From NCBI GenBank assembly GCA_023267435.1, contig JAHFNH010000001.1, forward strand, positions 174,839 to 238,838: a stretch of DNA of 64,000 nucleotides, read 5' to 3'. How positions within the stretch are numbered: position 1 is the stretch's first letter; every line of letters starts with the position of its first letter. The notes beneath the pieces were generated by a model. It was given only the letters and a program-made list of their open reading frames with translations. It did no database searches and was not told the DNA's origin. The stretch is from Candidatus Nomurabacteria bacterium (GTDB taxonomy: Bacteria; Patescibacteriota; Minisyncoccia; Phycocordibacterales; UBA9973). Below are positions 386-54,971 of this stretch, one piece after another. Position numbers and translations under genes: made by a program.

Positions 386-2137
386 CTAGCGGTCGTTTTC
401 AGTGTTGTTTCCTTCACTGTTATCATCGTGTTTACGATCATCTGACCACTTTGCTGCTTTCTTGATCCAGTCTCCGACAATGCCAGTTACTTTATCGTTG
501 TTTTTGCCACTTAAACTAGGGCAACCAAACTTAAGTCTACTGTCATTCTCTTCACCGTCTCTTTTCTTATTGTCTTCTCTATCACTGTCGTTATAATTAC
601 CTTGGTCTTCGTTGTTCTTATCATCGATACTTTCTTTAGTTTGTTTATGGTCGATGATTTGAGCACAACTACATCCTCTGGTGTCAACCAAACTTACAGC
701 TTTTGCTGGAACGATATTTGGCTTCTTGGCTGTTCCAATGTTTGCCATCCAAGTCAATGCACCGTTTACATTAAACACTGCAAGATTGTTTGGCTTCAAT
801 GTTGTAACTGTATCAGCTACAGTTCCAGGACATTGATCAACTTCATCGGCGACTCCGTCTTTATCTGCATCTTTTACTCCGCAAGTAGCTACTACAGGGA
901 ATGACAAAGTTAGTGTTCCTTGATTTGGATCAAGAACAACTCCTACTGTAGTTGCTTCTCTACCAGGGGCTCTGCGTAGGGCAGGGGTTTGTGATTTAGT
1001 CAATTGCATTAATTGATCTACGTTCAATGAACTTGAATAACTTTTTCCACCGTCTGCAGACAATTCATTTGTTTTTGAACCTAAACTAAGAGTTCCTGGA
1101 TCAAAATAGAAATCTCCACCATCTGGTGCTACGTATGTAGTATTTGCTTTTGAAAGTACAACATCGTTTGTTGTTGTAGGTGCAACTGTATCAAACTTCA
1201 ATGTTCCATTTACTGCATCATATACAGCGTTGGTTAATGTGTATGTAGCTTTTGTTGTTACATCCATCATATATATAGTACCTGTTTTTGCTGTCATGTT
1301 GGCATCAAATTTAGGCATCCAATCTATATTGTTTGGAGAAAACTGTACATTTATATTGTCAGATACTAATGATCTTCCATCAAAAATTACTAGACTTAGA
1401 GGTGTTTTAAGTGTTGGATTTGTTTTATCCATAGTAACAGTTGTGTTACAAGGATCAACTGGAGGAGTACAATTATTTACCATTGATAATTTCAATGTTC
1501 CTAAATTGTTATCAGCTACCACAGAAATTTGTGTCACTACTCCTGCTGCATCCTTTACATACAATGTGGAATAATTCATTAATTCTGCTTTACCTAGAGA
1601 AGGAACGAATTTTACATTGTCGACAGAGAATGTAGCCGTTTTTGATGATAATGAAAATGTATTTACATCAAAAGATAAATCCACGCCCTTTACTGTTACT
1701 ATAGGATTTGTTTGTGAAAGTACAACGGTTGTTGTAGCTGTCACAACATCAAATGTAAGGGAAGCTCCTATTATATCAAATTTTGCATTAGTGAATGTTG
1801 TCGCTGCGTCGATAGTCTTTGTTGTTGAATAATAGAATATGCCTGATTTTGACATTAAGGTTGCCATATCAAAAGATTGAAACCAATTAGTTCCATCACT
1901 TGAAAATGCACCATTCATATTATTTGATACTAATGTAGATCTACCGTCATAAGTTATAGTATCTCCTGTGGATGTTGTATAAATGGTGTTTGTCTTATTA
2001 AGACTAACAGTTGTAGGTGGACAATTTGTCACAACCTGACCTCTTGTTAGATTTGCTATATAAACGATACCAGCAATAACAGCGACAGCTGCTAAGCCGA
2101 GGAAAACTTTGTGATGAATTTTATGCATGTTAAACAT
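386..2137 (-). CDS. Large secreted/surface protein with N-terminal signal-anchor and beta-rich S/T/N repeats. It has a thrombospondin type-3-like Ca-binding repeat (DADKDGVADEVDQC) and an acidic low-complexity C-terminus.
   Basis: 583-aa ORF with a hydrophobic N-terminus (LGLAAVAVIAGIVYIA). A DxDxDGxxDxxDxC motif is present. The LRRAPGREA motif is shared with the 1239-aa protein at 37608. Confidence 0.6.
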   Translation of the reverse strand: MFNMHKIHHKVFLGLAAVAVIAGIVYIANLTRGQVVTNCPPTTVSLNKTNTIYTTSTGDTITYDGRSTLVSNNMNGAFSSDGTNWFQSFDMATLMSKSGIFYYSTTKTIDAATTFTNAKFDIIGASLTFDVVTATTTVVLSQTNPIVTVKGVDLSFDVNTFSLSSKTATFSVDNVKFVPSLGKAELMNYSTLYVKDAAGVVTQISVVADNNLGTLKLSMVNNCTPPVDPCNTTVTMDKTNPTLKTPLSLVIFDGRSLVSDNINVQFSPNNIDWMPKFDANMTAKTGTIYMMDVTTKATYTLTNAVYDAVNGTLKFDTVAPTTTNDVVLSKANTTYVAPDGGDFYFDPGTLSLGSKTNELSADGGKSYSSSLNVDQLMQLTKSQTPALRRAPGREATTVGVVLDPNQGTLTLSFPVVATCGVKDADKDGVADEVDQCPGTVADTVTTLKPNNLAVFNVNGALTWMANIGTAKKPNIVPAKAVSLVDTRGCSCAQIIDHKQTKESIDDKNNEDQGNYNDSDREDNKKRDGEENDSRLKFGCPSLSGKNNDKVTGIVGDWIKKAAKWSDDRKHDDNSEGNNTENDR

Positions 2138-20503: not shown

Positions 20504-20654
20504 ATGTAATTTTACTATTAAATTTTTACTAAAAAAGCCCTGTTGCGACAGGACTAATATTTAGTATATTATTTTATTTTGTTAAAAAAGTCAATATGCA
20601 CATCCTTTTCCACTTTTTCTTTGTTTTTTGGTTTATTAGGTATATAATTAACGC

Positions 20655-21836
20655 GTGAGTATTTTAAATAACGCAAAGTTTAAATTTTCGTTGAATAAAA
20701 ATACAAAACTATTTTTGATAGTTTCTGTTTTTGCAGTGTTGGCGGTTTTTTCTATTTTTTCTTCACCAAAAATAAAGGTTCAAGCTTCCAGTACGGACAA
20801 TGTTCTAGGTTACGCCTGGTCTTCAAATATCGGTTGGATAAGTTTGAATGGATCAAACTACGGAGTGAATATTGATTCTTCAGGAAATATGACTGGTTAC
20901 GCCTGGTCTTCAAATATCGGTTGGATAAAATTCGGCGGATTGTCCGGTTTTCCAGCTGGCGGTGGTGATGCTCATTTGTCTGGTAATACTTTGACAGGCT
21001 GGGCCAGAGCTTGTAGTGGCCAAAATAATCAAAATACTCCTCCTCCAAATCAAACTGTTGCCAACAATACTTGTACCGGCTCATCTCGTACTGATGGTTG
21101 GGATGGATGGATCAGTTTAAGTGGCGCATCTCCAGCTTATGGCGTGACAGTAGATACAACTTCTGGCAATTTTTTCGGTTATGGTTGGGGTTCAGATGTT
21201 GTCGGTTGGGTTGATTTTTCGCTAGTAAAATATAATCCTACTCTTGATATGTGTTTAAACATTACCGGAATTCAAACTAGTGTACCGGTCGGAATGATTG
21301 CAGACTCATCTGGAAATTGTGTTACTGGCTCTGGTGACATGTGCCCAAACATCTCTGGAATTCAAAATACTATACCAAATGGAATGATTATAGATTCTTC
21401 TGGAAATTGCGTCAGTTCTTCTGGCGACATGTGCCCAAACATTACCGGAGTTCAAGGCAGTATTCCAACTGGAATGATTACGGATTCTTTCGGAAACTGT
21501 ATTGCACCTAATGACATGTGTCCAAACATTATTGGAATTCAAACAACAATTCCTCAAGATATGGTTATCGATCCAACAACTGGTTATTGTTTCACTTCAA
21601 TCCAAACAGATCTTTGTCCAAATGATCCTGGAATTCAAACGACGCTTCCTTGTGCAAATGGAGATTTTTGCCCAGACCAGCCAGGAATTCAAACTACACT
21701 TCCTTGTCTTTCTATTATTCATATTTATCCTAGCTGTCATTTCGACGGAGTAAAAAATTACACGGAGACTGGCATAGATTGCGGTGGACCTGATTGTCCT
21801 AATTGTAAAAAACCACCAAAGTTTATTGAAGGATAG
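20655..21836 (+). CDS. Secreted repeat protein (GYAWSSNIGWI repeats plus a Cys-containing 30-aa tandem repeat)
   Basis: Signal peptide or TM at the N-terminus. The GYAWSSNIGWI(S/K) repeat occurs three times. The unit DMCPNI(S/T)G(I/V)Q..IP.GMI.DS.GNC occurs about four times. Confidence 0.6.
   Translation: MSILNNAKFKFSLNKNTKLFLIVSVFAVLAVFSIFSSPKIKVQASSTDNVLGYAWSSNIGWISLNGSNYGVNIDSSGNMTGYAWSSNIGWIKFGGLSGFPAGGGDAHLSGNTLTGWARACSGQNNQNTPPPNQTVANNTCTGSSRTDGWDGWISLSGASPAYGVTVDTTSGNFFGYGWGSDVVGWVDFSLVKYNPTLDMCLNITGIQTSVPVGMIADSSGNCVTGSGDMCPNISGIQNTIPNGMIIDSSGNCVSSSGDMCPNITGVQGSIPTGMITDSFGNCIAPNDMCPNIIGIQTTIPQDMVIDPTTGYCFTSIQTDLCPNDPGIQTTLPCANGDFCPDQPGIQTTLPCLSIIHIYPSCHFDGVKNYTETGIDCGGPDCPNCKKPPKFIEG
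21246..21600 (+). repeat. About 4 tandem copies of an 87-90 bp coding repeat
   Basis: Units beginning gacatgtgcccaaacat... are 75-90% identical. Confidence 0.6.
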
Positions 21837-21865
21837 TTTATTGTTTAAAATTTAATTAAAAAACT

Positions 21866-22513
21866 GTGAAAAAAGAAATAATTCAAACATTAAAAATAAT
21901 TACTCTCGGCACGTTATTCATTACCGGTGTATCTTTTGCTTCACCAGCAAATCCTCCTAGTAATAATGCGCCAACTCCCATAAATGTAGGCGGAGCTTCT
22001 CAGGTGAAAATCGGAGGATTGGGTACTGGGCCATTGGCTGTTTTCGGTCTTTCACAAATGTATGGCAATGTGAACATTAAAAATGATTTAGATAATACAG
22101 CGGGAAATTTATATGTATCGGGAAATATCGGCGTCGGAATTGCATCGCCTACAGAAAAGCTTGATGTAGCCGGAAATATAAAAATAAGTTCTGTCGCTCA
22201 TCCGACAGTTGCTTCTAATGCTCAAGTTTGCGCTGACACGACAGGTAAAATAGTTTCTTGCGGTAATAAATGCGGTTCGGCTCAAGGTATAACCGGTTCT
22301 AAACCTACGACAAATCTTTGCGCAGTCGGAACACCTCACACTGTTTATTCTGGTTATCCTGGCTGTACTCCAGGTGTCTATGATGCTTCTTGTCCTGATA
22401 CCGGTCTTCCTGCTCAAGGAAATACATATTCACCCAATGATACAAATCAATGGCTCTGGACTTGTGAAGGTGCGGGAGTTCCTGTTAGTTGTAATTCATT
22501 TAGACCTATATAA
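21866..22513 (+). CDS. Secreted protein, paralog 1 of the conserved-leader family (GTG start)
   Basis: Leader MKKEIIQTLKIITLG. Motifs PINVGG...GPLAVFG and LYVSGNIGVGIASPTEKLDVAGNIKIS. Confidence 0.6.
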   Translation: MKKEIIQTLKIITLGTLFITGVSFASPANPPSNNAPTPINVGGASQVKIGGLGTGPLAVFGLSQMYGNVNIKNDLDNTAGNLYVSGNIGVGIASPTEKLDVAGNIKISSVAHPTVASNAQVCADTTGKIVSCGNKCGSAQGITGSKPTTNLCAVGTPHTVYSGYPGCTPGVYDASCPDTGLPAQGNTYSPNDTNQWLWTCEGAGVPVSCNSFRPI

Positions 22514-22519
22514 ATTTAT

Positions 22520-23956
22520 ATGAAAAAAGATTTAATTCAAACACTAAAAATAATTACTCTCAGCTTGATGCTCAGCGCAGGCTTTGCTTTGGCCTGGACA
22601 GCGCCGACAAGTTCACCGACAGCTAATGATGCTACACCTCCGATAAATGTCAGTGGTATTGTTCAATTAAAAGACGGAGCTCTAGCCACTGGACCATTAT
22701 TGGTCAGTGGTCCTACCACGATTCACGGCAATGTAAGTATCTTGGGTGATACTTCTACTCCTCCTACCGGAGGCGGAAGTAGAACTGCAATGAAATTTTT
22801 AAATAATATTTTTGCATCATTTTTAAACACAGCTTTTGCTGTCGGAAATCAACCGACAACCCCGACTTTAACCGAAGTCACTCCTGTCGGCGTGAATGGT
22901 GTGACTTCCGACTCTACTCCGAATTATACTTTTAATTCAAACGTAGCGGGAACAATTTCCTTTACTGGTGGATGTACTAGTTCTACTTCCAGTGTTCCTT
23001 ATGGTAATACGACTGTTACTTTAAATCATTTATATAATGGTGTGTATAGTTGTACAGTTCAATTAACTACGACAGATGGCACTCTTTCAAATTTACTTTA
23101 CTTTGATTTTGAGATTCAAAACAATCCATCTCCGACACCAACACCTCTACCAACCAGTGATCTATATGTATCGGGAAGGGTTGGTGTCGGTGTTCCAGTA
23201 CCTACAGAAAAGCTTGATGTATCCGGTAATGTTAAAATTGCTTCTCTTCAAAATACAGCTGTTAAATTAGTGCGCATTTGCGCTGATCAATTTGGAAAAA
23301 TAATTCTTTGCCCAAGCGGATCTTCATCATCAATGGGTGGAACTTTATTTCCATCGTATAATATGACAAATGGAGATGGTACTTGGACTGTGCCTGACGG
23401 AGTTTTTCGTATTCATGTTAAAGTTTCCGGTGCCGGCGGCGGTGGTGGTGGCGCTTATGATCATTCGGGTGGTGCTGCCGGCGGTGGCGGTGGTGGCGGT
23501 GGATTTTCAGAAGGAGATTTAAATGTCGTTCCAGGGGAAACTTATTTTTATCATGTTGGAAAGGGTGGTGCTAGTGGTACTACTATCAATTCAACTGCTC
23601 CTGGTCAAAATGGCGGTAATGGTGAGTCTAGTAATTTTGATTACTTTTTTTCAGCTAGTGGCGGTGCGGGTGGAAAAGCAAGCTATCATTTAGGTGGCGG
23701 CGGTGGAGGTGGAATAACTATCCCTGGTGTTGGTGGTGTGTTTGGGACAGGAACAAATGCTAACGGAACATCAGGAGGAACTGGTGGATATAATATAAAT
23801 CAAGCAGGTAGTGGTGGTAATTCCGGTGGCTCTGGCATAGGAGGAAGTGGCGGTAATGGCGAAGGACCTCATTGTACCAGTTATAGCGGTTGTGATTCTG
23901 CCAATCCAGGTGCTAATGGTGGTATTGTTATAACTTGGAATAATTTAATAAATTAA
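22520..23956 (+). CDS. Secreted glycine-rich protein, paralog 2
   Basis: Leader MKKDLIQTLKIITLS. The C-terminal ~200 aa carry runs of 6-8 consecutive Gly (GAGGGGGGAY, AAGGGGGGGGF) and end IVITWNN. Confidence 0.6.
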   Translation: MKKDLIQTLKIITLSLMLSAGFALAWTAPTSSPTANDATPPINVSGIVQLKDGALATGPLLVSGPTTIHGNVSILGDTSTPPTGGGSRTAMKFLNNIFASFLNTAFAVGNQPTTPTLTEVTPVGVNGVTSDSTPNYTFNSNVAGTISFTGGCTSSTSSVPYGNTTVTLNHLYNGVYSCTVQLTTTDGTLSNLLYFDFEIQNNPSPTPTPLPTSDLYVSGRVGVGVPVPTEKLDVSGNVKIASLQNTAVKLVRICADQFGKIILCPSGSSSSMGGTLFPSYNMTNGDGTWTVPDGVFRIHVKVSGAGGGGGGAYDHSGGAAGGGGGGGGFSEGDLNVVPGETYFYHVGKGGASGTTINSTAPGQNGGNGESSNFDYFFSASGGAGGKASYHLGGGGGGGITIPGVGGVFGTGTNANGTSGGTGGYNINQAGSGGNSGGSGIGGSGGNGEGPHCTSYSGCDSANPGANGGIVITWNNLIN

Positions 23957-24004
23957 TTGTCGCGCTTTAATGGACAGTTGCGCGACACGATTTTGTAAAA
24001 TCGC

Positions 24005-25177
24005 ATGAATAAAAACATAATTCAAACACTTAAAATAATTTCATTCGGACTAGTACTCAGTGCTGGATTTGCTTTGGCTCAAATTTTTACCGGACCATTT
24101 TCAAATCCTCCTTCAGTAAACATTCCCGCTCCGATCAATGATAGTTCTTATGGACAGATTAAATCCGGAGGCTTGGGAGTGGGACCACTGACAGTTTTTG
24201 GAGACTCAGCTTTTTATGGCAAACAAAGTATTCTCACAAGCGGTAATTTATACGCATCAAACAAAGCAGGAGTTGGAATTTTACCGACAGCATCATCAGA
24301 AAATCTTGAAATAGCTAATACCGCTGGTTTAAATGGCCAAGGTGATATAAAAAATTACATGAAGACCAGTTCGCTTTCTCTTGCCAGCAACCCTTCTCCA
24401 TCTAAGATAAGAGAAGTTTGTTCAGATAGCTCTGGGAAACTTGTCTTGTGCGCTATTACAGCTGCGACTTCTGTTGCGCATGGATCTAAGACTTGGAATA
24501 TCAATGGCGGTTATTCATTCACTGTACCTCACGGCATTTCAAGTTTAGTTATTGAGACATGGGGCGCTGGTGCCGGCGGTGCCGGCGGAACTGGTGCTTA
24601 TGGTTCTGATGGTATAGGTGTCGGTGGTAACGGTGGCGGTGGAGGTGGATATGCTAAAACGACTATTACCGTAGCTCCAAATCAAGTCATGAATATAACT
24701 GTCGGAGAAAGAGGTGTCTATGGCACTGGGAGTGGTTCTGATGGCTTCGGTGCTACTTCGGGTGGTTTTGGTACTGACAGTTTTGTTTTGTCTAATGGAA
24801 ATTTAATATTGAAAGCTTATGGAGGACAAGGACAGTCCCCTGGTACAGGTGTGACGTCTCCAGGTGGAGGATTCCTTGCTGGTCCAGGTATTACTGGTAC
24901 AAATGGTCAGGCTGGTTTACCCGCAGGAACAGGTACTGGTTTTGGCACTTATGGCGGTACGGGAGGATATGGTGCAAATGGTGGTGCGGGTGGCAGTGGC
25001 GGTGGGTCTCCAACTGGTAATAGTGGCAATGGCTCTGATGGTTTGTGGGGTAATTCTGGTATTGCACCAGGCGGAGGCGGTCAAGGCGGAGGCGGTGCTG
25101 ATGCAAAAGCACTTTATGGTTATTCCGGTGGAGGTGGAGGATATGGTGCTGACGGACAAGTTAGAATTACTTGGTAA
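24005..25177 (+). CDS. Secreted glycine-rich protein, paralog 3
   Basis: Leader MNKNIIQTLKIISFG. Gly runs (GGNGGGGGGYAK) and the ending VRITW. Confidence 0.6.
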   Translation: MNKNIIQTLKIISFGLVLSAGFALAQIFTGPFSNPPSVNIPAPINDSSYGQIKSGGLGVGPLTVFGDSAFYGKQSILTSGNLYASNKAGVGILPTASSENLEIANTAGLNGQGDIKNYMKTSSLSLASNPSPSKIREVCSDSSGKLVLCAITAATSVAHGSKTWNINGGYSFTVPHGISSLVIETWGAGAGGAGGTGAYGSDGIGVGGNGGGGGGYAKTTITVAPNQVMNITVGERGVYGTGSGSDGFGATSGGFGTDSFVLSNGNLILKAYGGQGQSPGTGVTSPGGGFLAGPGITGTNGQAGLPAGTGTGFGTYGGTGGYGANGGAGGSGGGSPTGNSGNGSDGLWGNSGIAPGGGGQGGGGADAKALYGYSGGGGGYGADGQVRITW

Positions 25178-25223: not shown

Positions 25224-25502
25224 ATGAATAAAAAGAAAATTTATATAATTTCTATTGTCGTAATAGTTGTCATTGCTCTGGCTTTGGTTGGTTTTTATTA
25301 TTATAAAAATGTCAATAAACCACTTACTGAACAAGACAAGATTAATATTCTAGATCAGCTTAGTAAAGAATCAAAAAGCAATTACAACAACCAGCAAAAG
25401 GCTATTATTTTAAATAATTTATCCAGTTCTTCCAAAGATAGCAATGTCAGTAAGCTTACTAAAGAACAAAAATTGCAGCTTATGCAGTCGGCTGCGCAGT
25501 AA
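25224..25502 (+). CDS. Small single-TM protein
   Basis: 92 aa with the helix IYIISIVVIVVIALALVGFYYY. Confidence 0.4.
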   Translation: MNKKKIYIISIVVIVVIALALVGFYYYKNVNKPLTEQDKINILDQLSKESKSNYNNQQKAIILNNLSSSSKDSNVSKLTKEQKLQLMQSAAQ

Positions 25503-37570: not shown

Positions 37571-37630
37571 TCAAGTATTTTAATTATTAGTTTAATTTTA
37601 TAAAAAAATGAAAAAATATATATTAGGAAG
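37571..37630 (+). promoter_or_regulatory. Duplicated promoter/leader module, copy 1
   Basis: ttttaattattagtttaatttt(a)taaaaaaatgaaaaaatatatattagg is about 90% identical to 41432-41482. Confidence 0.5.
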
Positions 37631-40600
37631 TTTAGTTTTAATGAGTATGGTTGGTTTTTTAGGAGTTAACATTCAGCATGTCGATGCTAAAGTCAAGATT
37701 GGTGCTAAATGTGGTGGATCGACTAGAAGTTCTCAAGATGGAATGCTTGTTCCTAATCGCTGGACACTTTATTCTAATGGAAGTGGTGGATATTACGTAG
37801 CTTGTGGTATTTTACCAGTCCACCGTCCTTGGCCAATAGCCGAAAACATCCAAAGCCCAGTATCAAACACAGTAATTCCTAACACAGCAAATCCTGGAGT
37901 ATCTGCAACAAACCCTATCCAATATATATTTAGAACATATCCGTTATTACCAGGTGATCCTCTTCCTGCCAATGATCCTGCAACTATCGGAAATAATCCT
38001 CCACCAATAGATCCGTATTCAAATGGTACGGAAACTCCTGTAGATGTAAATGCAGATGGCACTGTTGGATCGATTTTTAGTACTATTGCTTCAACTGCTA
38101 AAGTAATTTGGGAGCCAACATCATTGTTTGATAATATGGAATTTTGGAATCAACCTATGATGAGCTCTTTCAGAGCATTTAGACAAAGTACTGGTGGTAA
38201 TACTCCGGCTGAAAAATGGTATCCTGCACAAATAAACACGCTTCCAAATCCTGCTTCACAAATTCCATTAACTCGAGTTAAATTAAGTTGGAAACCCGTG
38301 GCTGGAGCAGACAGTTACCATGTAAAAATCACAGTAGTTAACAATCCATTAAACGTAGATCCAAATACACCAGCAGAGGTGGTTGTACCTGCTACTACTA
38401 GAAATTATGAGTTCGATGGACGAGGCAAGGTTTGGTATAAGTCTGAAGCGGTACCGTTTGTAGCTGGTCAGGAAATTATAGGACCAGATATAATAGAACA
38501 ACCTATAGTTTCAATGGTTCAAGGAAATATAAATACCAGTCATCCAAATGATTACTACACTTATAAATGGCCTACTATTTTGGGAGCTGTGAGTTATAAA
38601 TTGCAATACGCAGTATCATTTGCACCAATTATAGAAGGAACTCCTTTTGCAGATGGTGCTACATTTGTTGAAAATTCAAAAACAGTGATTGGTACTCCCG
38701 GTGGTCTTTATACTGTAACAACACATGTTTTACCTGGTGTTATAAATGAAAACAGTAATGACTCAGATACTGGCTATCATTCATTTGATTTCGCAAATAG
38801 TCCTCTTGCTAGTATTCACCCTACTATTCCTTTTCAAGATATTTATTGGCGTGTTGAAGGTATCGATAATCAGGGTAATGTTATTAAAGAGAATATTAAA
38901 TCAACAAATTACTTCACTCCTCCTGTCGCAAAGAAACCATACGCTCAAGCTTTCCCAACTTGGAACAGTACCGCTGGTGCGACTTCTTATGTAGTCGATA
39001 TGGCTGAAACACCTGATGCCCTTAATCTATTGCCAAAATTAACAAATCAAACATCTGTTGCAGAAAAAACAGGCACAACTACAAGTTCTGGAACTTTTCT
39101 TCTTAGAAGAATAGCTCCTGCTCATTCATATACTACTGGCACATTGAATGCTGGTCTATATGCCAATGACAGCGCTAAAAAATTTGTAGTTGATGAAATA
39201 ATAAAGTCATTAAAAGAAGATAGAATTTCATTTGTTAATATTAATGCAGCAATGGGAATATATGATTTTGAAAATTCTGTAGATGAAGCAGATGCTTTGG
39301 ATAGAGGAGTACCATATGTACCGGTAGATTATCAAGGAAATGACATGGATATAGTGACAAATTTCGACAATAATAGTCCTTCAAATTACTCTGATTATCT
39401 TTCTGCGGAAAATTGGATATATCCGTTAGTCACCGATGAATTAGGTTTGGTTGTCGTACCTCAAACAGCTTCAAATGTTCTTAAATTCACCACTAATGCA
39501 CCTATTAGTATTAAAAAGATTCTGACTGGTAATGCCACAATAAGTGTCAGTCAAATCGTTACTAATTCTAGTCCTACTAACTACAAGATGACGACAACTC
39601 TGACTTTTGGAGGCACAAATGGTTCCTATGCATTCAATATAACCAAGCATGGTAACAACGGTCTGAACTTAGCGGATGAAAATGTAAATCAATATGATCT
39701 GACATATCCGACAATCGGACCTGTATCAGTGGTTCCAAGTTTGGGTGGCAAAGATATCACTGAGTTCGCAAGATTGCTTCCAGGCAAACAATATTTCTAC
39801 CGAGTTACACCTCTAACAGACTCAAGCGCTGAAACCAATGTACCATTTACTTTCGGACTAACATCTCCAGTAATGTCATTAACCACTCCGACTATGACTC
39901 CTGATTCAATGACCATCTCCACTGATGGTGAAACAACTCTTTCTGCATATGATTTACAAGGTACGATCAAATCATTAGATATTAATACTAATCAGAAACT
40001 ATTACTACGAAGACCTCCTGGCAGAGAAGCCATCAATACACCTATCACTTGGACTGTGGTTCCTAGTGCCATAGATTATGTTGTTACACTTAAGGATGCA
40101 AACCATCAAGTGATTCAGACTGTTGCAACAACAGGGTCAACATATACAATAACCGATCCTAATGTGGCTTATTATTCCTTGCAAGCTCGTAATTCTGTGG
40201 GTGCAGGAACAGCAAGTATAGACTATCTTTTGCCAGTTTCCGTAGTTTCCAAAACAGCAACAATAGGAACTGTTTCTGTAAAAACCTATCTTGCCAATCT
40301 CAAGGCTTATATGACATCTCTAAAGGCTACAAGAAAAGCTTATGAAGCTTCTTTCAAAGCTACAAGCGCTGCCAATAAAACACGTCTTACAGCTATTAAA
40401 ACAGCCAATGCAACGGTTTCTAAATCCATTAAAAATGTTAATGCATTGAGTGGTTCTGTTAAGGTTACTCCAACTCCAACCAATCCCAGTAGTCCTTTTA
40501 AATCTGCCCTAAATGTTCCTATTAACAATTTGAAAGTTCAAATAGTTGTGGAGACAGCGCCTGGTGTATATACATCTGTCAGCGTGCCCAGCGCTACTGT

Positions 40601-41327
40601 GATTTCTACTACTCCAGCAGGAATTATAAAATGTCCGGCAGTGGCCGGGGTAGCATATCCTGCGACAGTAGATTGTTCTGAAACAGGATTGGCATTGAAT
40701 TCCAGTGTAAAGTTATCAGCGACTTCCACCATACCGACAATATTAAACACTCACTTCTATCAGTGGACTATGATACCTGGTTCGACTTCAGCCGGAGTAA
40801 ATACTTGTACTTATCCTTCTTCCAGCAATAATATCTTGTGTACAATGACAGGCACCAGAGAGATTCAAGCAGTTTATCAGTGTAACGATGGCTATGGATT
40901 CAACACTAAATCAAATCAATGTGAGAAGTCTGCCGTAGTTCAGACAGCTTGTACTAAGTTTAGCCCTACGATGACAAATTGCGGTCTTGGTTTAAATATC
41001 AGCCGAATAAATAAAAATTCTTTTACTTACAATGTGGCTGTTTCTCCAGCATCGCCTCTAGTGTCTGTGAACACCGCGCCAAGTTCTTCTTCACAATGTG
41101 TTAATAGTGGAACTTCGACTGCGACAAATTGTTATTTGTTCTACAATTCTTCTCCGCAATCAGTGACCTTGACTGCGTCTTCTTCTTCAGGAAGTCTGCC
41201 AGTCGGTTTCAAATGGATAGCGGGAACAGGATTGCCTTGTAACAATTCCACTTCAGCTACTTGTACTGTAAATATCACTAACCTGACTTCACAAGTTGCC
41301 GGAGGCATAACTGCTTCATTTCCTTAA
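37608..41327 (+). CDS. Giant secreted surface protein (1239 aa, S/T/N/P-rich, probably Ig/FN3-like beta domains)
   Basis: Signal peptide MKKYILGSLVLMSMVGFLGV. The LLRRPPGREA motif is shared with the 386..2137 protein. Confidence 0.6.
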   Translation: MKKYILGSLVLMSMVGFLGVNIQHVDAKVKIGAKCGGSTRSSQDGMLVPNRWTLYSNGSGGYYVACGILPVHRPWPIAENIQSPVSNTVIPNTANPGVSATNPIQYIFRTYPLLPGDPLPANDPATIGNNPPPIDPYSNGTETPVDVNADGTVGSIFSTIASTAKVIWEPTSLFDNMEFWNQPMMSSFRAFRQSTGGNTPAEKWYPAQINTLPNPASQIPLTRVKLSWKPVAGADSYHVKITVVNNPLNVDPNTPAEVVVPATTRNYEFDGRGKVWYKSEAVPFVAGQEIIGPDIIEQPIVSMVQGNINTSHPNDYYTYKWPTILGAVSYKLQYAVSFAPIIEGTPFADGATFVENSKTVIGTPGGLYTVTTHVLPGVINENSNDSDTGYHSFDFANSPLASIHPTIPFQDIYWRVEGIDNQGNVIKENIKSTNYFTPPVAKKPYAQAFPTWNSTAGATSYVVDMAETPDALNLLPKLTNQTSVAEKTGTTTSSGTFLLRRIAPAHSYTTGTLNAGLYANDSAKKFVVDEIIKSLKEDRISFVNINAAMGIYDFENSVDEADALDRGVPYVPVDYQGNDMDIVTNFDNNSPSNYSDYLSAENWIYPLVTDELGLVVVPQTASNVLKFTTNAPISIKKILTGNATISVSQIVTNSSPTNYKMTTTLTFGGTNGSYAFNITKHGNNGLNLADENVNQYDLTYPTIGPVSVVPSLGGKDITEFARLLPGKQYFYRVTPLTDSSAETNVPFTFGLTSPVMSLTTPTMTPDSMTISTDGETTLSAYDLQGTIKSLDINTNQKLLLRRPPGREAINTPITWTVVPSAIDYVVTLKDANHQVIQTVATTGSTYTITDPNVAYYSLQARNSVGAGTASIDYLLPVSVVSKTATIGTVSVKTYLANLKAYMTSLKATRKAYEASFKATSAANKTRLTAIKTANATVSKSIKNVNALSGSVKVTPTPTNPSSPFKSALNVPINNLKVQIVVETAPGVYTSVSVPSATVISTTPAGIIKCPAVAGVAYPATVDCSETGLALNSSVKLSATSTIPTILNTHFYQWTMIPGSTSAGVNTCTYPSSSNNILCTMTGTREIQAVYQCNDGYGFNTKSNQCEKSAVVQTACTKFSPTMTNCGLGLNISRINKNSFTYNVAVSPASPLVSVNTAPSSSSQCVNSGTSTATNCYLFYNSSPQSVTLTASSSSGSLPVGFKWIAGTGLPCNNSTSATCTVNITNLTSQVAGGITASFP

Positions 41328-52217: not shown

Positions 52218-54971
52218 ATGGAAGGATCATTTTTAGAGGAAATGCCAAAATTCAAAACTCCGGAAGAGGAGCTCGGTTATTTGCGCGCGCATGTGGCGAA
52301 ACGCGAACAAGAACTCATTAATGCCGGGCGTTTTGAGAGCGCTCAAGAAAATGCAGTTCAAGAAATAATTACTGAATACGAAAAAGTTCCGGTGAGTCAG
52401 GCTATTCATGAGCGCAATATAATAGAAAAAGAAGAGGCAGAAGAAGTTGTGCTCAGATTAAAACCAGAAACACACGATCGAGTGATGGAAGAACTTTTAG
52501 GTTTAGTTCTCACGAAAGGCATCAGAAATGCTTTGTCGGTAGTAGAAGCAATGAACAATCCGCATATTGATGACGATTTTCACCGATTGTTGATTCAATA
52601 TTTAAAAACAGGACAAAAAGTGCCAGACTTGAAAGAAGGCACGCCTCTTTGGAAACAATTAAACATTACACTTTATGAAGTTACTTTGCCGGAGCAATCA
52701 GGCGAAGAGAAAAAAGGTTTCAAGGAATTCATTGGCGCGATGGAGCAGTTCTATGCCGGCATGCAGTCTATTTCTTCCGGACGCAACAATGAAGAAAGAA
52801 ATTATTTTTCATTGGAAATAGCTTTAGGAAATCAAACCGACGAAGTTGTTGTTTATGTAGCTGTACCAAATAGCTTCGTTTCTCTTTTTGAAAAGCAGAT
52901 TTTAGCTTTTTACCACGATGCGAAAGTAGTAGAAGTTGAGGATGATTACAATGTTTTCACGGACAATGGTTTTTCTGCTGGAGCTTATGCTAAATTCTCC
53001 GAGCGTTCCGTATTACCTATTAAGACTTATGATGTGATAGACCATGATCCGATGAATACTATTCTGAGTGTTTTCTCAAAATTAAAGTCGAGTGGCGAGG
53101 GCGCGGCAATACAATTCGTTATAGCTCCAGCGGGAGAAAAATACATTAAAGAATTTCACCTTATTTTAGATGATGTGAAAGATGGAATGTCTGTGAAACA
53201 TGCTGCGGATAATTTTTATAAATTCAATAAAGCCATTTTGAAAGCTTCGAAGGAATTATTTTTCGGAGTAAAAAAAGAAACAGAGAAAAAAGAAAAATAC
53301 ATTGCTGGCAGAAGTGCAGTAGATGAAGGCGCAGCGGAAAAAATAGGCAATAAGCTAAAAAGTACCATTATGGAAGCCAATATTCGCCTCATCGCTTCAG
53401 CGGGAACAAAAGAAAGAGCGGATGCAATATTAAGAGAAATAGAATCATCTTTCAATCAATTTACCGAAACAGCCAGCAACTCGATTATTTTTGAAAAAGT
53501 TCAAGGAAGCGAAGTGAAAGAATTTTTCCACGATTTTTCTTATCGCGCTTTTTCGAAAAATAAATCTATGCCGATGAATTTAAAAGAGCTCGCATCCGTA
53601 TTTCATTTTCCTATTGGTGTGGAAGGCATGGCACAATTGCGTGAAGCCAAGTCCGGTATTGCTCCCGCTCCTATGCAAATGGGCGGAGATGGGATTGTAT
53701 TAGGTATAAATAGTTATCGCGGAAAAGACACTGAAATCCGCATGGCGCGAGAAGACAGAGTGCGCCATATGTATGTCATCGGTCAGACGGGAACAGGTAA
53801 GACGAATATTTTGCTTAATATGATTACTCAGGACATTAAAAATGGTGATGGATGTTGTTACATCGATCCGCACGGCACAGATATTCAAACCATACTTAGT
53901 CGTATTCCAAAAGAAAGAATAGATGATGTTATTTACTTCGATCCGGCTTATACAGCGCGACCAATGGGGCTCAATATGCTCGAGTATGATCCAAATTATC
54001 CTGAGCAAAAGACTTTCGTGGTCAATGAAATGATGGGTATTTTCAATAAGCTTTTCGATATGAAAGCTGGAGGCGGAGCGATGTTTGAACAATATTTTAG
54101 AAATAGCGCATTTCTGGTGATGGAAGATCCAGAATCAGGTTCGACTTTGCTTGAAATTACCAGAGTTTTGGCGGATAAAGAATTTCGTGATTTAAAACTT
54201 TCTAGATGTAAGAATCCGATCATTAAGCAGTTTTGGGTTTCTGCGGAACAAACTTCCGGTGATCAATCTTTGGCAAACTTCGTGCCATATATTTCTTCAA
54301 AGTTTGATAACTTTATTTCCAACGACATTATGCGTCCAGTCGTACTTCAGCAGAATTCAGTTTTCAATTTTAGAAAAATTATGGACGAGAAGAAAATTCT
54401 TTTGGTAAATCTTTCAAAAGGCAGACTCGGTGATATCAATGCGAACTTGATCGGTCTTGTACTGGTGGGTAAAATTCAAATGGCAGCGCTTTCCCGTGTG
54501 GATATGTTCGGCAAGCCTATGAATGATTTTTATCTTTATATTGATGAGTTTCAAAATGTTACTACTGATTCTATTTCTTCAATTCTTTCGGAAGCTAGAA
54601 AATATAGATTGTCTCTCAATATTGCGCACCAATATATTGCTCAGTTGGATGAGGGAATTAAGAATGCAGTCTTTGGCAACGTCGGCTCGATGGCAATCTT
54701 CCGTGTCAGTCCTGAAGATGCAACTTTCTTAGAACCAAAATTCAAACCGGTATTTACTTCTCATGATATAACCAAGCTCGACAACTACAATGCTTACATG
54801 AGCATGTTGGTAAATGGCCAGCCGACCAAGCCTTTCAATTTAAAAACTTTAGCGCCTGAAAGAGGTAATCCAGAAATAATAGATAGTCTCAAAGAACTTT
54901 CATATCTAAAATACGGCCGTGATAGAGAAGAAGTAGAAGCTGAAATCATGGCTCGCTACTCCTCGATGTAA
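52218..54971 (+). CDS. Large soluble P-loop ATPase of the FtsK/HerA/VirD4-TraG superfamily with an uncharacterised ~450-aa N-terminal domain
   Basis: Walker A GQTGTGKT followed by YIDPHG, Walker B LYIDEFQN. No TM helices. Confidence 0.6.
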   Translation: MEGSFLEEMPKFKTPEEELGYLRAHVAKREQELINAGRFESAQENAVQEIITEYEKVPVSQAIHERNIIEKEEAEEVVLRLKPETHDRVMEELLGLVLTKGIRNALSVVEAMNNPHIDDDFHRLLIQYLKTGQKVPDLKEGTPLWKQLNITLYEVTLPEQSGEEKKGFKEFIGAMEQFYAGMQSISSGRNNEERNYFSLEIALGNQTDEVVVYVAVPNSFVSLFEKQILAFYHDAKVVEVEDDYNVFTDNGFSAGAYAKFSERSVLPIKTYDVIDHDPMNTILSVFSKLKSSGEGAAIQFVIAPAGEKYIKEFHLILDDVKDGMSVKHAADNFYKFNKAILKASKELFFGVKKETEKKEKYIAGRSAVDEGAAEKIGNKLKSTIMEANIRLIASAGTKERADAILREIESSFNQFTETASNSIIFEKVQGSEVKEFFHDFSYRAFSKNKSMPMNLKELASVFHFPIGVEGMAQLREAKSGIAPAPMQMGGDGIVLGINSYRGKDTEIRMAREDRVRHMYVIGQTGTGKTNILLNMITQDIKNGDGCCYIDPHGTDIQTILSRIPKERIDDVIYFDPAYTARPMGLNMLEYDPNYPEQKTFVVNEMMGIFNKLFDMKAGGGAMFEQYFRNSAFLVMEDPESGSTLLEITRVLADKEFRDLKLSRCKNPIIKQFWVSAEQTSGDQSLANFVPYISSKFDNFISNDIMRPVVLQQNSVFNFRKIMDEKKILLVNLSKGRLGDINANLIGLVLVGKIQMAALSRVDMFGKPMNDFYLYIDEFQNVTTDSISSILSEARKYRLSLNIAHQYIAQLDEGIKNAVFGNVGSMAIFRVSPEDATFLEPKFKPVFTSHDITKLDNYNAYMSMLVNGQPTKPFNLKTLAPERGNPEIIDSLKELSYLKYGRDREEVEAEIMARYSSM

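What the first reader, a model, noticed from the sequence alone, without database searches (positions are those of the whole stretch)
20655..25177. Tandem array of four secreted proteins; three are recent paralogs with a conserved leader and poly-glycine C-terminal domains
The genes at 21866, 22520 and 24005 begin with almost the same 45 nt (aaaaaagaWWtaattcaaacaYtaaaaataatt, giving M-K/N-K-x-I/L-IQTLKII). They share two internal motifs, PIN(V/D)xG..Q.K.G.L.TGPL.V.G and LYVSG.IGVG...PTEKLDV.GN.KI.S, which read like a beta-helix or tail-fibre sequence. Two of them carry C-terminal regions with repeated runs of 5-8 consecutive glycines separated by short beta-like segments. Both end in the same I(V/R)ITW. 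Such spacing of hexa-Gly runs recalls the polyglycine-II helix lattice of the Gly_rich domain family (ALK/LTK-like). This resemblance is my inference. The first gene (20655) adds GYAWSSNIGWI repeats and Cys-containing tandem repeats. Together they look like a diversifying surface or adhesion module, plausibly for host or episymbiont attachment.
Basis: partly seen in the sequence, partly recalled or inferred. Interest (0 to 1): 0.7.

Follow-up and report, generated by a model that had tools for sequence, protein, structure and literature searches.

The report
Secreted phage-fibre-like surface proteins, polyglycine heads
A tiny candidate-phyla-radiation (CPR) bacterium carries a conserved five-gene operon for exported fibre-like proteins, two of them tipped with the rigid polyglycine "brush" domain that phages use to recognise hosts, so these are probably its own attachment fibres.

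Summary
The four ORFs, the shared leader, the two internal motifs, the Gly runs and the gene-1 repeats are all present as described. The three leader genes are not recent paralogs. They are 35-43% identical, and each has a positional ortholog in three other Paceibacteria-type contigs. Together with a fifth gene, a 92-aa membrane protein at 25224-25502, they form a conserved operon between nusA and tpiA.

The "leader" is a 62-aa N-terminal module found in about 8,400 protein clusters. Pfam and NCBIfam have no model for it, and it was not found in viral contigs. It is fused to interchangeable phage-fibre-type heads (Gly_rich_2, GP38, Collar, Gp10_C, S74, collagen).

The most likely function is Sec-exported, probably trimeric surface fibres that present variable loop tips for attachment. 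The domain identity is well supported; the adhesive function is inferred.

The parts
20655..21836 (+). Gene 1 (393 aa). It has an N-terminal hydrophobic helix (aa 15-35), an 8-stranded beta-barrel-like domain built from G[YW]AWS.N.GWI hairpin repeats (aa ~50-200, nt ~20802-21254), Cys-containing 30-aa tandem repeats (nt ~21245-21707), and a conserved extreme C-terminal tag KKPPKFIEG (nt 21807-21833).
21866..22513 (+). p2 (215 aa, GTG start). It has the leader module (aa 1-61, nt 21866-22048), the stalk motif LYVSGNIGVGIASPTEKLDVAGNIKIS (nt 22107-22192), and a small Cys-rich head ending in WLWTCEGAGVPVSC (nt ~22229-22510). It has no Gly-rich domain.
   Evidence: A7 profile hit E 1.3e-19. The ortholog L010_2 is 69% identical with the same head. 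The position-2 orthologs in L002 and L003 carry a Gly-rich head instead.
22520..23956 (+). p3 (478 aa). It has the leader module (nt 22520-22711), an Ig-like insert (aa ~117-199, nt ~22868-23116), the stalk motif (nt 23160-23245), a CAD..GKI..C loop, and a TNF-like/polyglycine head (aa ~279-473, nt ~23354-23938).
24005..25177 (+). p4 (390 aa). It has the leader module (nt 24005-24202), a degenerate stalk motif, and a TNF-like/polyglycine head (aa 167-390, nt ~24503-25174) ending in QVRITW.
   Evidence: Pfam Gly_rich_2 scores 19.5 bits, below the cutoff of 24.3, but covers profile positions 3-225 of 226. PHROG 863 hit E 1.3e-9. The C-domain is 41% identical to p3 over 200 columns. Orthologs at position 4 always carry this head.
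25224..25502 (+). Small single-pass membrane protein (92 aa). It has an N-terminal Lys-rich stretch, a TM helix, and three '(T/S)xx(E/Q)K.xIL..L' repeats. It is the fifth gene of the unit, and its stop lies 5 nt before tpiA.
   Evidence: Orthologs sit at the same position in L001 (two copies), L002, L003 and L010, 46-55% identical where compared. Homologs directly abut leader-family genes in 10 of 25 long metagenome loci.
20504..20654 (.). Divergent intergenic region between nusA (- strand) and gene 1. It is the only sizeable non-coding gap upstream of the array and is probably the promoter region.
   Evidence: Gene spacing: gaps inside the array are 6-48 nt. A weak sigma-70-like match lies at 20543-20572, but such matches are not enriched over shuffles.

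Best explanation
The region is a conserved five-gene operon of a Paceibacteria-type (CPR/Patescibacteria) bacterium, inserted between nusA and tpiA-pgk. It encodes exported cell-surface proteins.

**Genes 2-4.** These are ancient paralogs of a very large Patescibacteria family defined by a 62-aa N-terminal module. The module is a Sec-type signal peptide with an unusually conserved n/h region, followed by (W)TAPT..PP..N..(A)PIN.S...Q.K.G.L. After the module come tail-fibre-like stalk motifs and an exchangeable C-terminal head.

**Heads.**
- In p3 and p4 the head is a TNF-like beta-sandwich. About six Gly-rich hairpins extend from it and pack into a polyglycine-II-type lattice. This is the same domain that forms the receptor-binding tip of phage tail fibres (Pam3 gp24, Bxb1 gp33), and it is more distantly related to the ALK/LTK ligand-binding domain.
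- p2 carries a small Cys-rich head.

**Proposed mechanism (inferred).** The proteins are exported by Sec and cleaved after A-x-A. They assemble into fibres, probably trimeric, that are held at the envelope through the conserved N-terminal module. Assembly or anchoring may be helped by the co-encoded small membrane protein and the GYAWS beta-barrel protein. The rigid Gly lattice presents variable loop tips that bind a ligand on a partner or host cell, or on some other surface. Specificity changes through head swapping and loop indels.

**Shown:** domain identity, fold, family distribution, synteny and fast divergence.
**Inferred:** export, trimerisation, surface retention and adhesion.
For: **Head identity.**
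- Pfam Gly_rich_2 above threshold for p3.
- PHROG tail families hit both p3 and p4.
- The family profile matches the Pam3 fibre at E 2.4e-18 and Bxb1 gp33 at 3e-7.
- The AF2 head has pLDDT 85-96 and 10 strands.
- In Pam3 this domain is described as a TNF-like domain plus 12 Gly-rich motifs in a four-layer lattice, with a hypervariable receptor-binding tip (PMC9608196).

**Loop variation.** Gly stems and strands are conserved, while the inter-stem tips vary in sequence and by indels of up to about 40 aa.

**Cellular rather than phage origin.**
- The flanks are housekeeping genes: RNase Y, ClpP, tig, ppa and nusA upstream; tpiA, pgk, recJ and rnhA downstream.
- The same locus and gene order occur in L001, L002, L003 and L010.
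- The N-module was not found in 2.9 M viral contigs, and p3 has no tblastn hit in the phage database.

**Fibre nature of the family.** The 62-aa module is found in 8410 cluster representatives, always starting at residue 1. It is fused to Gly_rich_2, GP38, Peptidase_S74, Collar, Gp10_C and collagen repeats.

**Functional linkage.** Leader genes, GYAWS-barrel genes and the small TM gene are adjacent on one strand in 13 of 25 long metagenome loci.

**Fast evolution.** Array proteins are 35-48% identical where NusA, Tig and Ppa are 83-91% identical.
Against: - There is no experimental or localisation evidence. No signal-peptide predictor or multimer model could be run.
- The stalk and N-module were modelled with low confidence as a monomer (pLDDT <50 for aa 43-114).
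PGII geometry is therefore inferred from confidence values and from superposition on solved lattices, not measured.
- p4 is below the Pfam gathering score.
- No cell-wall anchor motif (LPXTG, lipobox, S-layer homology) was seen, so how the fibres stay on the cell is unknown.
- Paceibacteria lifestyles are mostly unknown, so 'host attachment' is an extrapolation from other CPR lineages.
Confidence: 0.6

Rival explanations
1. The proteins are accessory or tip components of another envelope machine (type IV pili or the monoderm-type T4SS) rather than autonomous fibres. The conserved N-module would dock them onto that machine.
For: - In L004, leader genes and a GYAWS gene lie directly upstream of a PilB/GspE-type ATPase.
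- A Gly_rich_2 protein with a pilin N_methyl domain exists (P0016). One gene-1 relative is labelled pseudopilin by JGI (P0136).
- In Nomurabacteria and Yonathbacteria, a leader/Gly-rich gene sits next to an orphan VirD4/TraG-like ATPase.
- A paper on the Patescibacteria T4SS reports that no adhesin was detected for that system (PMC12102498).
Against: - p2-p4 have no prepilin motif (no G|F...E and no PF07963 hit).
- There are no pilus or VirB genes near the array in the window. The VirD4-like gene lies 27 kb away.
- The three-family neighbourhood recurs without such machines.
Confidence: 0.12
2. The proteins have a surface role other than adhesion, for example an envelope or S-layer-like coat, or decoys or shields that interfere with phage receptor-binding proteins. 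The fast divergence would then be driven by phage pressure rather than by partner recognition.
For: - The operon lies in a housekeeping location and may be co-transcribed with tpiA-pgk. No terminator-like site lies between the genes, and a 5-nt gap separates the last gene from tpiA.
- Divergence is very fast.
- The heads are homologous to phage receptor-binding domains.
Against: - All characterised homologs of the head are ligand- or receptor-binding tips (PMC9608196; PMC13243795).
- The family heads are typical receptor-binding modules.
- No repetitive lattice-forming domains were detected.
Confidence: 0.12
3. The genes are prophage or tailocin remnants, that is, genuine virion tail-fibre genes.
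For: The best sequence and structure matches are phage tail fibres, and PHROG families annotated 'tail' are hit.
Against: - No other phage gene is in the neighbourhood, and the housekeeping synteny is identical in several genomes.
- The N-termini are Sec-type signal peptides, which virion proteins assembled in the cytoplasm do not carry.
- The module is absent from IMG/VR viral contigs under the pattern used, and there is no tblastn hit in 50,697 phage records.
Confidence: 0.04
4. The Gly-rich tails are disordered low-complexity linkers, or PE-PGRS-like, as some NCBI records name relatives.
For: - Relatives are named 'PE-PGRS family protein' in NCBI records.
- Single-sequence phmmer finds nothing in the PDB.
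Against: - The model has pLDDT 85-96 across the Gly runs.
- The strand-Gly-strand pattern is conserved.
- No PE domain hit was found.
- Orthologs that lost the Gly hairpins keep the beta-strands in register (P0004, P0005, P0024).
Confidence: 0.02

Closest known systems
Cyanophage Pam3 tail fibre gp24 (PDB 7YPX/7YFW), TNF-like + glycine-rich domain
   Different: - gp24 is a virion protein with an N-terminal alpha-helical trimerisation and baseplate-docking domain, and it needs the chaperone gp25 (PMC9608196).
- The window proteins have a signal peptide, a different N-module and stalk, and sit in a cellular operon.
- No gp25/Tfa-like gene was detected. The downstream 92-aa membrane protein is a candidate partner by position only.
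Mycobacteriophage Bxb1 'tail wing brush' gp33 (PDB 9D93) and other phage polyglycine 'brush' antireceptor domains
   Different: The phage domains are part of the tail tip. The ones here are exported cellular proteins.
ALK/LTK extracellular TNF-like/glycine-rich (TG/GRD) domain, Pfam Gly_rich PF12810
   Different: - There is no PF12810 HMM hit.
- The similarity is far lower than to the phage fibres.
- The ALK domain binds ALKAL cytokines within a receptor kinase, and nothing comparable is present here.
Phage S16/T2-type gp38 adhesin (Pfam GP38 PF05268, PDB 6F45)
   Same: It also has a polyglycine sandwich head at a fibre tip. Other members of the same N-module family do hit PF05268 (P0110 scores 36.9 bits against a cutoff of 25).
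   Different: p3 and p4 do not hit PF05268. gp38 has a beta-helix rather than a TNF-like base (PMC9608196).
Conserved-motif signal peptides of Gram-positive surface proteins (YSIRK-G/S type). Comparison made from my own knowledge, not tested.
   Same: Both are Sec signal peptides whose n/h region is conserved across many otherwise unrelated surface proteins.
   Different: The motif and the taxon are different. Here the conservation extends about 35 residues past the predicted cleavage site. No evidence on targeting is available.

Membership tests
Pfam Gly_rich_2 (PF21722) / Pam3-gp24-type TNF-like + polyglycine head | HMM score above the curated gathering threshold | tested here: met
   p3 scores 33.2 bits against a cutoff of 24.3 (aa 284-468), so the feature is met. 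p4 scores 19.5 bits, below the cutoff, but covers profile positions 3-225 of 226. p4 is tied to p3 by 41% identity over 200 columns and by a PHROG 863 hit at E 1.3e-9.
Pfam Gly_rich_2 (PF21722) / Pam3-gp24-type TNF-like + polyglycine head | Sequence homology to a structurally solved member over the whole domain | tested here: met
   The profile of A4 matches the Pam3 fibre at E 2.4e-18 (query 148-347, chain 86-283) and Bxb1 gp33 at 3.1e-7.
Pfam Gly_rich_2 (PF21722) / Pam3-gp24-type TNF-like + polyglycine head | Fold: ten-stranded TNF-like sandwich with Gly hairpins packed as a PGII lattice | tested here: met
Pfam Gly_rich_2 (PF21722) / Pam3-gp24-type TNF-like + polyglycine head | Trimeric fibre assembly and receptor binding by the distal loop tips | not testable with these tools
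   Only monomer prediction was available. The evidence is indirect: variable tips and trimer-specific modules (S74, collagen, Collar, Gp10_C) in other family members.
Pfam Gly_rich (PF12810), ALK/LTK-type glycine-rich domain | HMM match to PF12810 | tested here: not met
   No PF12810 hit for p3 or p4 at E<=1.
Pfam Gly_rich (PF12810), ALK/LTK-type glycine-rich domain | Structural similarity to the ALK/LTK TG domain | tested here: met
Phage virion tail fibre / receptor-binding protein | Encoded within a phage or prophage together with other virion genes | tested here: not met
   The neighbours are housekeeping genes. The locus is syntenic in other genomes. No phage-database hit was found, and the N-module was not found in viral contigs.
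Phage virion tail fibre / receptor-binding protein | No export signal (virions assemble in the cytoplasm) | tested here: not met
   All three proteins start with a basic n-region, a 13-16-residue hydrophobic stretch and A-x-A (SFA, ALA, ALA). The model places a helix at aa 3-23. No dedicated predictor was run.
PE-PGRS (the name given to relatives in NCBI records) | N-terminal PE domain followed by GGA/GGN repeats | tested here: not met
   No PE-domain hit was found in Pfam or NCBIfam. The N-terminus is the 62-aa leader module.
Type IV pilin / pseudopilin | Class III signal peptide (G|F/M...E) / N_methyl motif | tested here: not met
   There is no PF07963 hit and no such motif in p1-p4. Pilin fusions exist only in other proteins (P0016).
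Patescibacteria 62-aa 'WTAPT' N-terminal module family (defined here, not in Pfam or NCBIfam) | The module lies at residue 1: conserved K.I..L..(L)S.G, an A-x-A site, then (W)TAPT..PP..N..(A)PIN.S...Q.K.G.L | tested here: met
   The A7 profile hits p4 at 7e-28, p3 at 1.4e-24 and p2 at 1.3e-19. It finds 8410 representatives at E<=1e-3, always at the N-terminus. Pfam and NCBIfam have no model for canonical members. p2 lacks the W-T-A-P-T residues themselves.

The most novel reading that the evidence does not exclude
Three gene families together form a previously undescribed, Patescibacteria-wide surface-fibre system. The first is the 62-aa N-module fibre family (about 8,400 clusters). The second is the GYAWS-repeat beta-barrel family with its C-terminal '..P.F.E.' tag (about 3,000 hits). 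The third is a small TM protein with EK.KIL repeats. In this system ultra-small bacteria display phage-tail-fibre-type receptor-binding heads (polyglycine brush, GP38, Collar, Gp10_C, S74-processed fibres) on a common exported stalk and exchange them like cassettes. The system would be the partner-recognition apparatus of these epibionts, and a cellular reservoir of, or sink for, phage receptor-binding-protein modules.
Probability: 0.35. Interest if true: 0.75.

Novelty: new variant of a known kind. Interest (0 to 1): 0.55.

Why it matters
How CPR/Patescibacteria recognise and hold on to partner cells is largely unknown outside Saccharibacteria, where type IV pili are implicated. This locus offers concrete, testable candidates: exported fibres carrying the same polyglycine-lattice receptor-binding domain that phages use. 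They are embedded in a conserved operon and belong to a very large family that the domain libraries do not model.

The finding also extends the known range of the rare polyglycine-II 'brush' fold from phage tips and metazoan ALK/LTK receptors to cellular bacterial surface proteins. In addition, it provides natural variants in which the Gly hairpins have been deleted from the TNF-like core, which is useful for studying how this fold is built. Finally, it corrects the 'PE-PGRS' annotations of CPR relatives.

Tried and rejected
- **Single-sequence phmmer against the PDB.** p3 and p4 found nothing relevant. Only the family profile detected Pam3 and Bxb1.
- **tblastn against phages.** p3 against 50,697 phage records gave no match.
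- **Related-locus scans.** The first genome-contig scan with the full-length alignment failed for lack of a conserved stretch. The leader-only alignment returned just 2 loci. The subfamily leader pattern found nothing in JGI metagenomes. A canonical-member alignment (A8) then gave 80 loci.
- **Viral contigs.** The N-module pattern returned no relative. The pattern is narrow, so absence is not proof.
- **Promoter and terminator scans.** These were not enriched over shuffles and were not used as evidence.
- **DGR-type diversification or recent gene conversion.** No long near-identical DNA repeats lie between the genes. The best inter-gene repeats are 72-78% identical. I found no reverse transcriptase among the ORFs I scanned, but not every ORF of the window was scanned.
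- **Literature.** Searches for PF21722/Gly_rich_2, for the WTAPT motif and for Patescibacteria plus polyglycine found nothing relevant.
- **Model coordinates.** These are not exposed to scripts, so PGII dihedral angles could not be measured.
Full report
**1. What is in the sequence**

The four + strand ORFs lie exactly where stated. The motif [IL]Q[TA].K[IL][IV] occurs only at the starts of 21866, 22520 and 24005 in all six frames of the window. A profile of the N-terminal module also hits only these three ORFs.

- Residues 1-12 are 75-83% identical between the paralogs. The h/c region is 23-69% identical, the next 50 residues 42-53%, and the C-domains 13-41%.
- The DNA of the leader region is only 72-75% identical. 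The synonymous positions that match use codons that are common in this genome. The conservation therefore reflects selection on the peptide, not recent duplication or gene conversion.
- Gly runs of 6, 8 and 7 residues (p3) and of 6 and 5 residues (p4) are present, as are the terminal ...ITW strands (p3 continues with NNLIN).
- In gene 1, the two GYAWSSNIGWI copies are encoded by a perfect 34-nt duplication. The Cys repeats form a 90-nt tandem array of 3.2 copies plus two shorter copies.

**2. Genomic setting**

- Upstream, on the minus strand, lie RNase Y, ClpP, trigger factor, inorganic pyrophosphatase and NusA.
- Downstream lie a 92-aa membrane protein, then TIM, PGK, RecJ, RNase H and ribosomal proteins.
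- No phage, pilus or secretion-system gene is adjacent.
- Gaps inside the array are 6-48 nt. The 92-aa gene ends 5 nt before tpiA.

Close relatives come from genomes labelled Paceibacterota, Nomurabacteria, Yonathbacteria and Kaiserbacteria.

**3. The array is an old, conserved operon**

The same nusA...tpiA locus in GCA_039739835.1 (L001) holds two gene-1-like genes, four leader genes and two small TM genes. Three other contigs (L002, L003, L010) have exactly the window's order: gene 1, three leader genes, small TM gene.

Reciprocal comparison shows positional orthology. The best hits of p2, p3 and p4 are the genes at positions 2, 3 and 4 respectively in each contig. The triplication therefore predates these genomes.

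| Comparison | Housekeeping proteins | Array proteins |
|---|---|---|
| Window vs L003 | NusA 91%, Ppa 85%, Tig 83% | gene 1 44%, p2 43%, p3 39%, p4 36%, TM 46% |

The heads differ by position:

| Position | Window and L010 | L002 and L003 |
|---|---|---|
| 2 | small Cys-rich domain | Gly-rich head |
| 3 | Gly-rich head | the same beta-strands with the Gly hairpins deleted (also P0004, P0024) |
| 4 | Gly-rich head | Gly-rich head |

**4. The Gly-rich head**

- *HMM evidence.* p3 passes the Pfam gathering score for Gly_rich_2 (PF21722). p4 is below it but covers the whole profile. PF12810 is not hit. PHROG 863, annotated as a tail family, is hit by both.
- *Sequence homology to solved structures.* A profile of 36 family members matches the sequence of the cyanophage Pam3 tail fibre over the entire domain (E 2.4e-18). 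It also matches Bxb1 gp33 (3e-7).
- *Structure prediction.* AlphaFold2 with that alignment gives pLDDT 85-96 for residues 279-478, with ten short strands and the rest non-helical. The stalk is low-confidence.

Pam3 gp24 is described as a TNF-like sandwich whose strands extend into six loops. These loops carry twelve Gly-rich motifs stacked in a four-layer lattice, with a conserved stem and a hypervariable receptor-binding tip (PMC9608196). Bxb1 gp33 and the Pam3 fibre are listed as PPII/polyglycine bundles (PMC13243192).

An alignment of ten heads from the arrays shows the same pattern. The strands and Gly stems are conserved, while the segments between paired stems vary in sequence and in length.

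ALK/LTK is a true but more distant relative. A PF12810 protein shares the first 65 columns of the domain at hhalign probability 99%.

**5. The leader is a family-wide N-terminal module**

Homologs share M-K-x-x-I-x-Q-x-L-K-(I/V)-I-x-L-A-x-V-L-S-F-G-(L/I)-S-Y-V-Y-A | W-T-A-P-T-x-x-P-P-x-G-N-V-S-A-P-I-N-x-S-x-x-x-Q-x-K-x-G-x-L.

- A profile of these 62-65 residues finds 8,410 cluster representatives at E<=1e-3 and 2,044 at E<=1e-10. The match is at the extreme N-terminus in nearly every listed hit.
- Neither Pfam nor NCBIfam has a model for it.
- The pattern-based scan of 2.9 M viral contigs found no relative.
- The layout fits a Sec signal peptide cleaved before W/Q/S: a basic n-region, a hydrophobic core, and small residues at positions -3 and -1. 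This is inference. The conservation inside and just after the signal is much higher than usual, which suggests a dedicated interaction such as targeting, anchoring or docking.

Heads attached to this module fall into the following classes:

| Head (Pfam) | Members of 76 metagenomic proteins |
|---|---|
| Gly_rich_2 | 14 |
| Collagen repeats | 2 |
| Gp10_C | 2 |
| GP38 | 1 |
| Phage Tail Collar | 1 |
| Peptidase_S74 intramolecular chaperone | 1 |
| beta-propellers, PKD and other scattered Pfam hits | a few |
| no recognisable Pfam head | the rest |

By established knowledge, the named modules are typical of trimeric phage fibres and receptor-binding tips. This is the basis for inferring a trimeric fibre.

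**6. The partners**

*The 92-aa protein.* It has one TM helix and three '(T/S)..(E/Q)K..IL..L' repeats.

*Linkage.* Twenty-five metagenome loci of at least 8 kb were retrieved through the canonical N-module. In 10 of them the small TM gene abuts a leader gene. Eight carry a GYAWS-barrel gene on the same strand, 13 have one or the other, and 6 have two to seven tandem leader genes. This recurrent linkage across distant members argues that the three families work together.

**7. Mechanism and alternatives**

The best-supported reading is a set of exported surface fibres whose polyglycine heads present variable loops for binding. The domain identity is strong. Export, trimerisation, retention and adhesion are inferred.

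Four alternatives are weighed in the rival explanations:
- docking onto pili or a T4SS, supported by the neighbourhoods of L004 and L006-L009 and by pilin fusions;
- a coat or decoy role;
- a prophage remnant;
- disordered PE-PGRS-like tails.

**8. Novelty**

The head is a member of a known Pfam family with solved phage structures. What appears undescribed in the libraries and papers searched is its use on Sec-exported proteins in a conserved CPR operon. The large N-module family and its two partner families also appear undescribed.

Noticed in passing
window 21807-21833 (C-terminus of gene 1); A5; L011-L090 gene-1 relatives: The GYAWS-repeat family ends in a conserved extreme C-terminal tag (KK.P.[FY]IE., more broadly ..P[VI][FW].E[FIK]) with a near-invariant Glu at the penultimate residue. 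No TM helix follows it. It looks like a recognition or sorting tag of unknown type.
   Followed up: partly
window 25224-25502; L001 7674-7958 and 9348-9632; L030, L033, L037, L045, L049, L052, L079, L085, L088: A small single-pass membrane protein with three '(T/S)xxEKxKILxxL' repeats is the fifth gene of the operon. Its homologs directly abut, and often overlap, leader-family genes in 10 of 25 long loci. It may be an assembly factor or an anchor. Its position recalls the chaperone gene next to phage fibre genes, but no homology to such chaperones was found.
   Followed up: partly
window 20808-20841 and 20895-20928: A perfect 34-nt direct duplication encodes the two GYAWSSNIGWI copies. The surrounding repeats are much more diverged.
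   Followed up: no
window ~22775-22850 (p3 aa 86-110): A hydrophobic segment (KFLNNIFASFLNTAFAVG) is conserved in position-3 orthologs as F..IFASL...N.AYA. It resembles a second signal-peptide-like or amphipathic element that ends in A-x-A. It was modelled with low confidence.
   Followed up: no
P0004, P0005, P0024, P0025; L001 5252-6376: These position-3 orthologs keep the TNF-like strands (FTVPDGVFRINV...LYVYP...GIYVAY) but have lost all Gly hairpins. They are natural 'de-glycinated' versions of the head.
   Followed up: partly
window 52218-54971; L006-L009: A 917-aa VirD4/TraG-like coupling-protein homolog lies far from any VirB4 gene in the window. In Nomurabacteria and Yonathbacteria contigs, a leader/Gly-rich gene flanked by two small ORFs sits immediately upstream of the ortholog (map - 135 aa - leader gene - 189 aa - ATPase - ndk).
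   Followed up: no
L004 1106-6003: On a contig labelled Saccharibacteria, a GYAWS gene, two leader-family genes and a Cys-rich secreted protein lie directly upstream of a PilB/GspE-type ATPase.
   Followed up: no
window 37608-41327 (+) and 386-2137 (-): Two large ORFs of 1239 aa and 583 aa have no Pfam hit at E<=1e-4.
   Followed up: no
P0008, P0092 (NCBI records): CPR relatives of these proteins are named 'PE-PGRS family protein' in public records. They have no PE domain and carry the N-module plus Gly_rich_2 or GP38 heads, so the name is a composition-driven misannotation.
   Followed up: yes
window 22229-22510 (p2 head): The Cys-rich head of p2 (CG.A.G....P..NLC..G......W.WTC.G.G....C) resembles a small disulfide-rich module seen at the C-termini of several gene-1 relatives in A5 (for example ...KWTWTC.G.DG..). 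It has no Pfam model.
   Followed up: no
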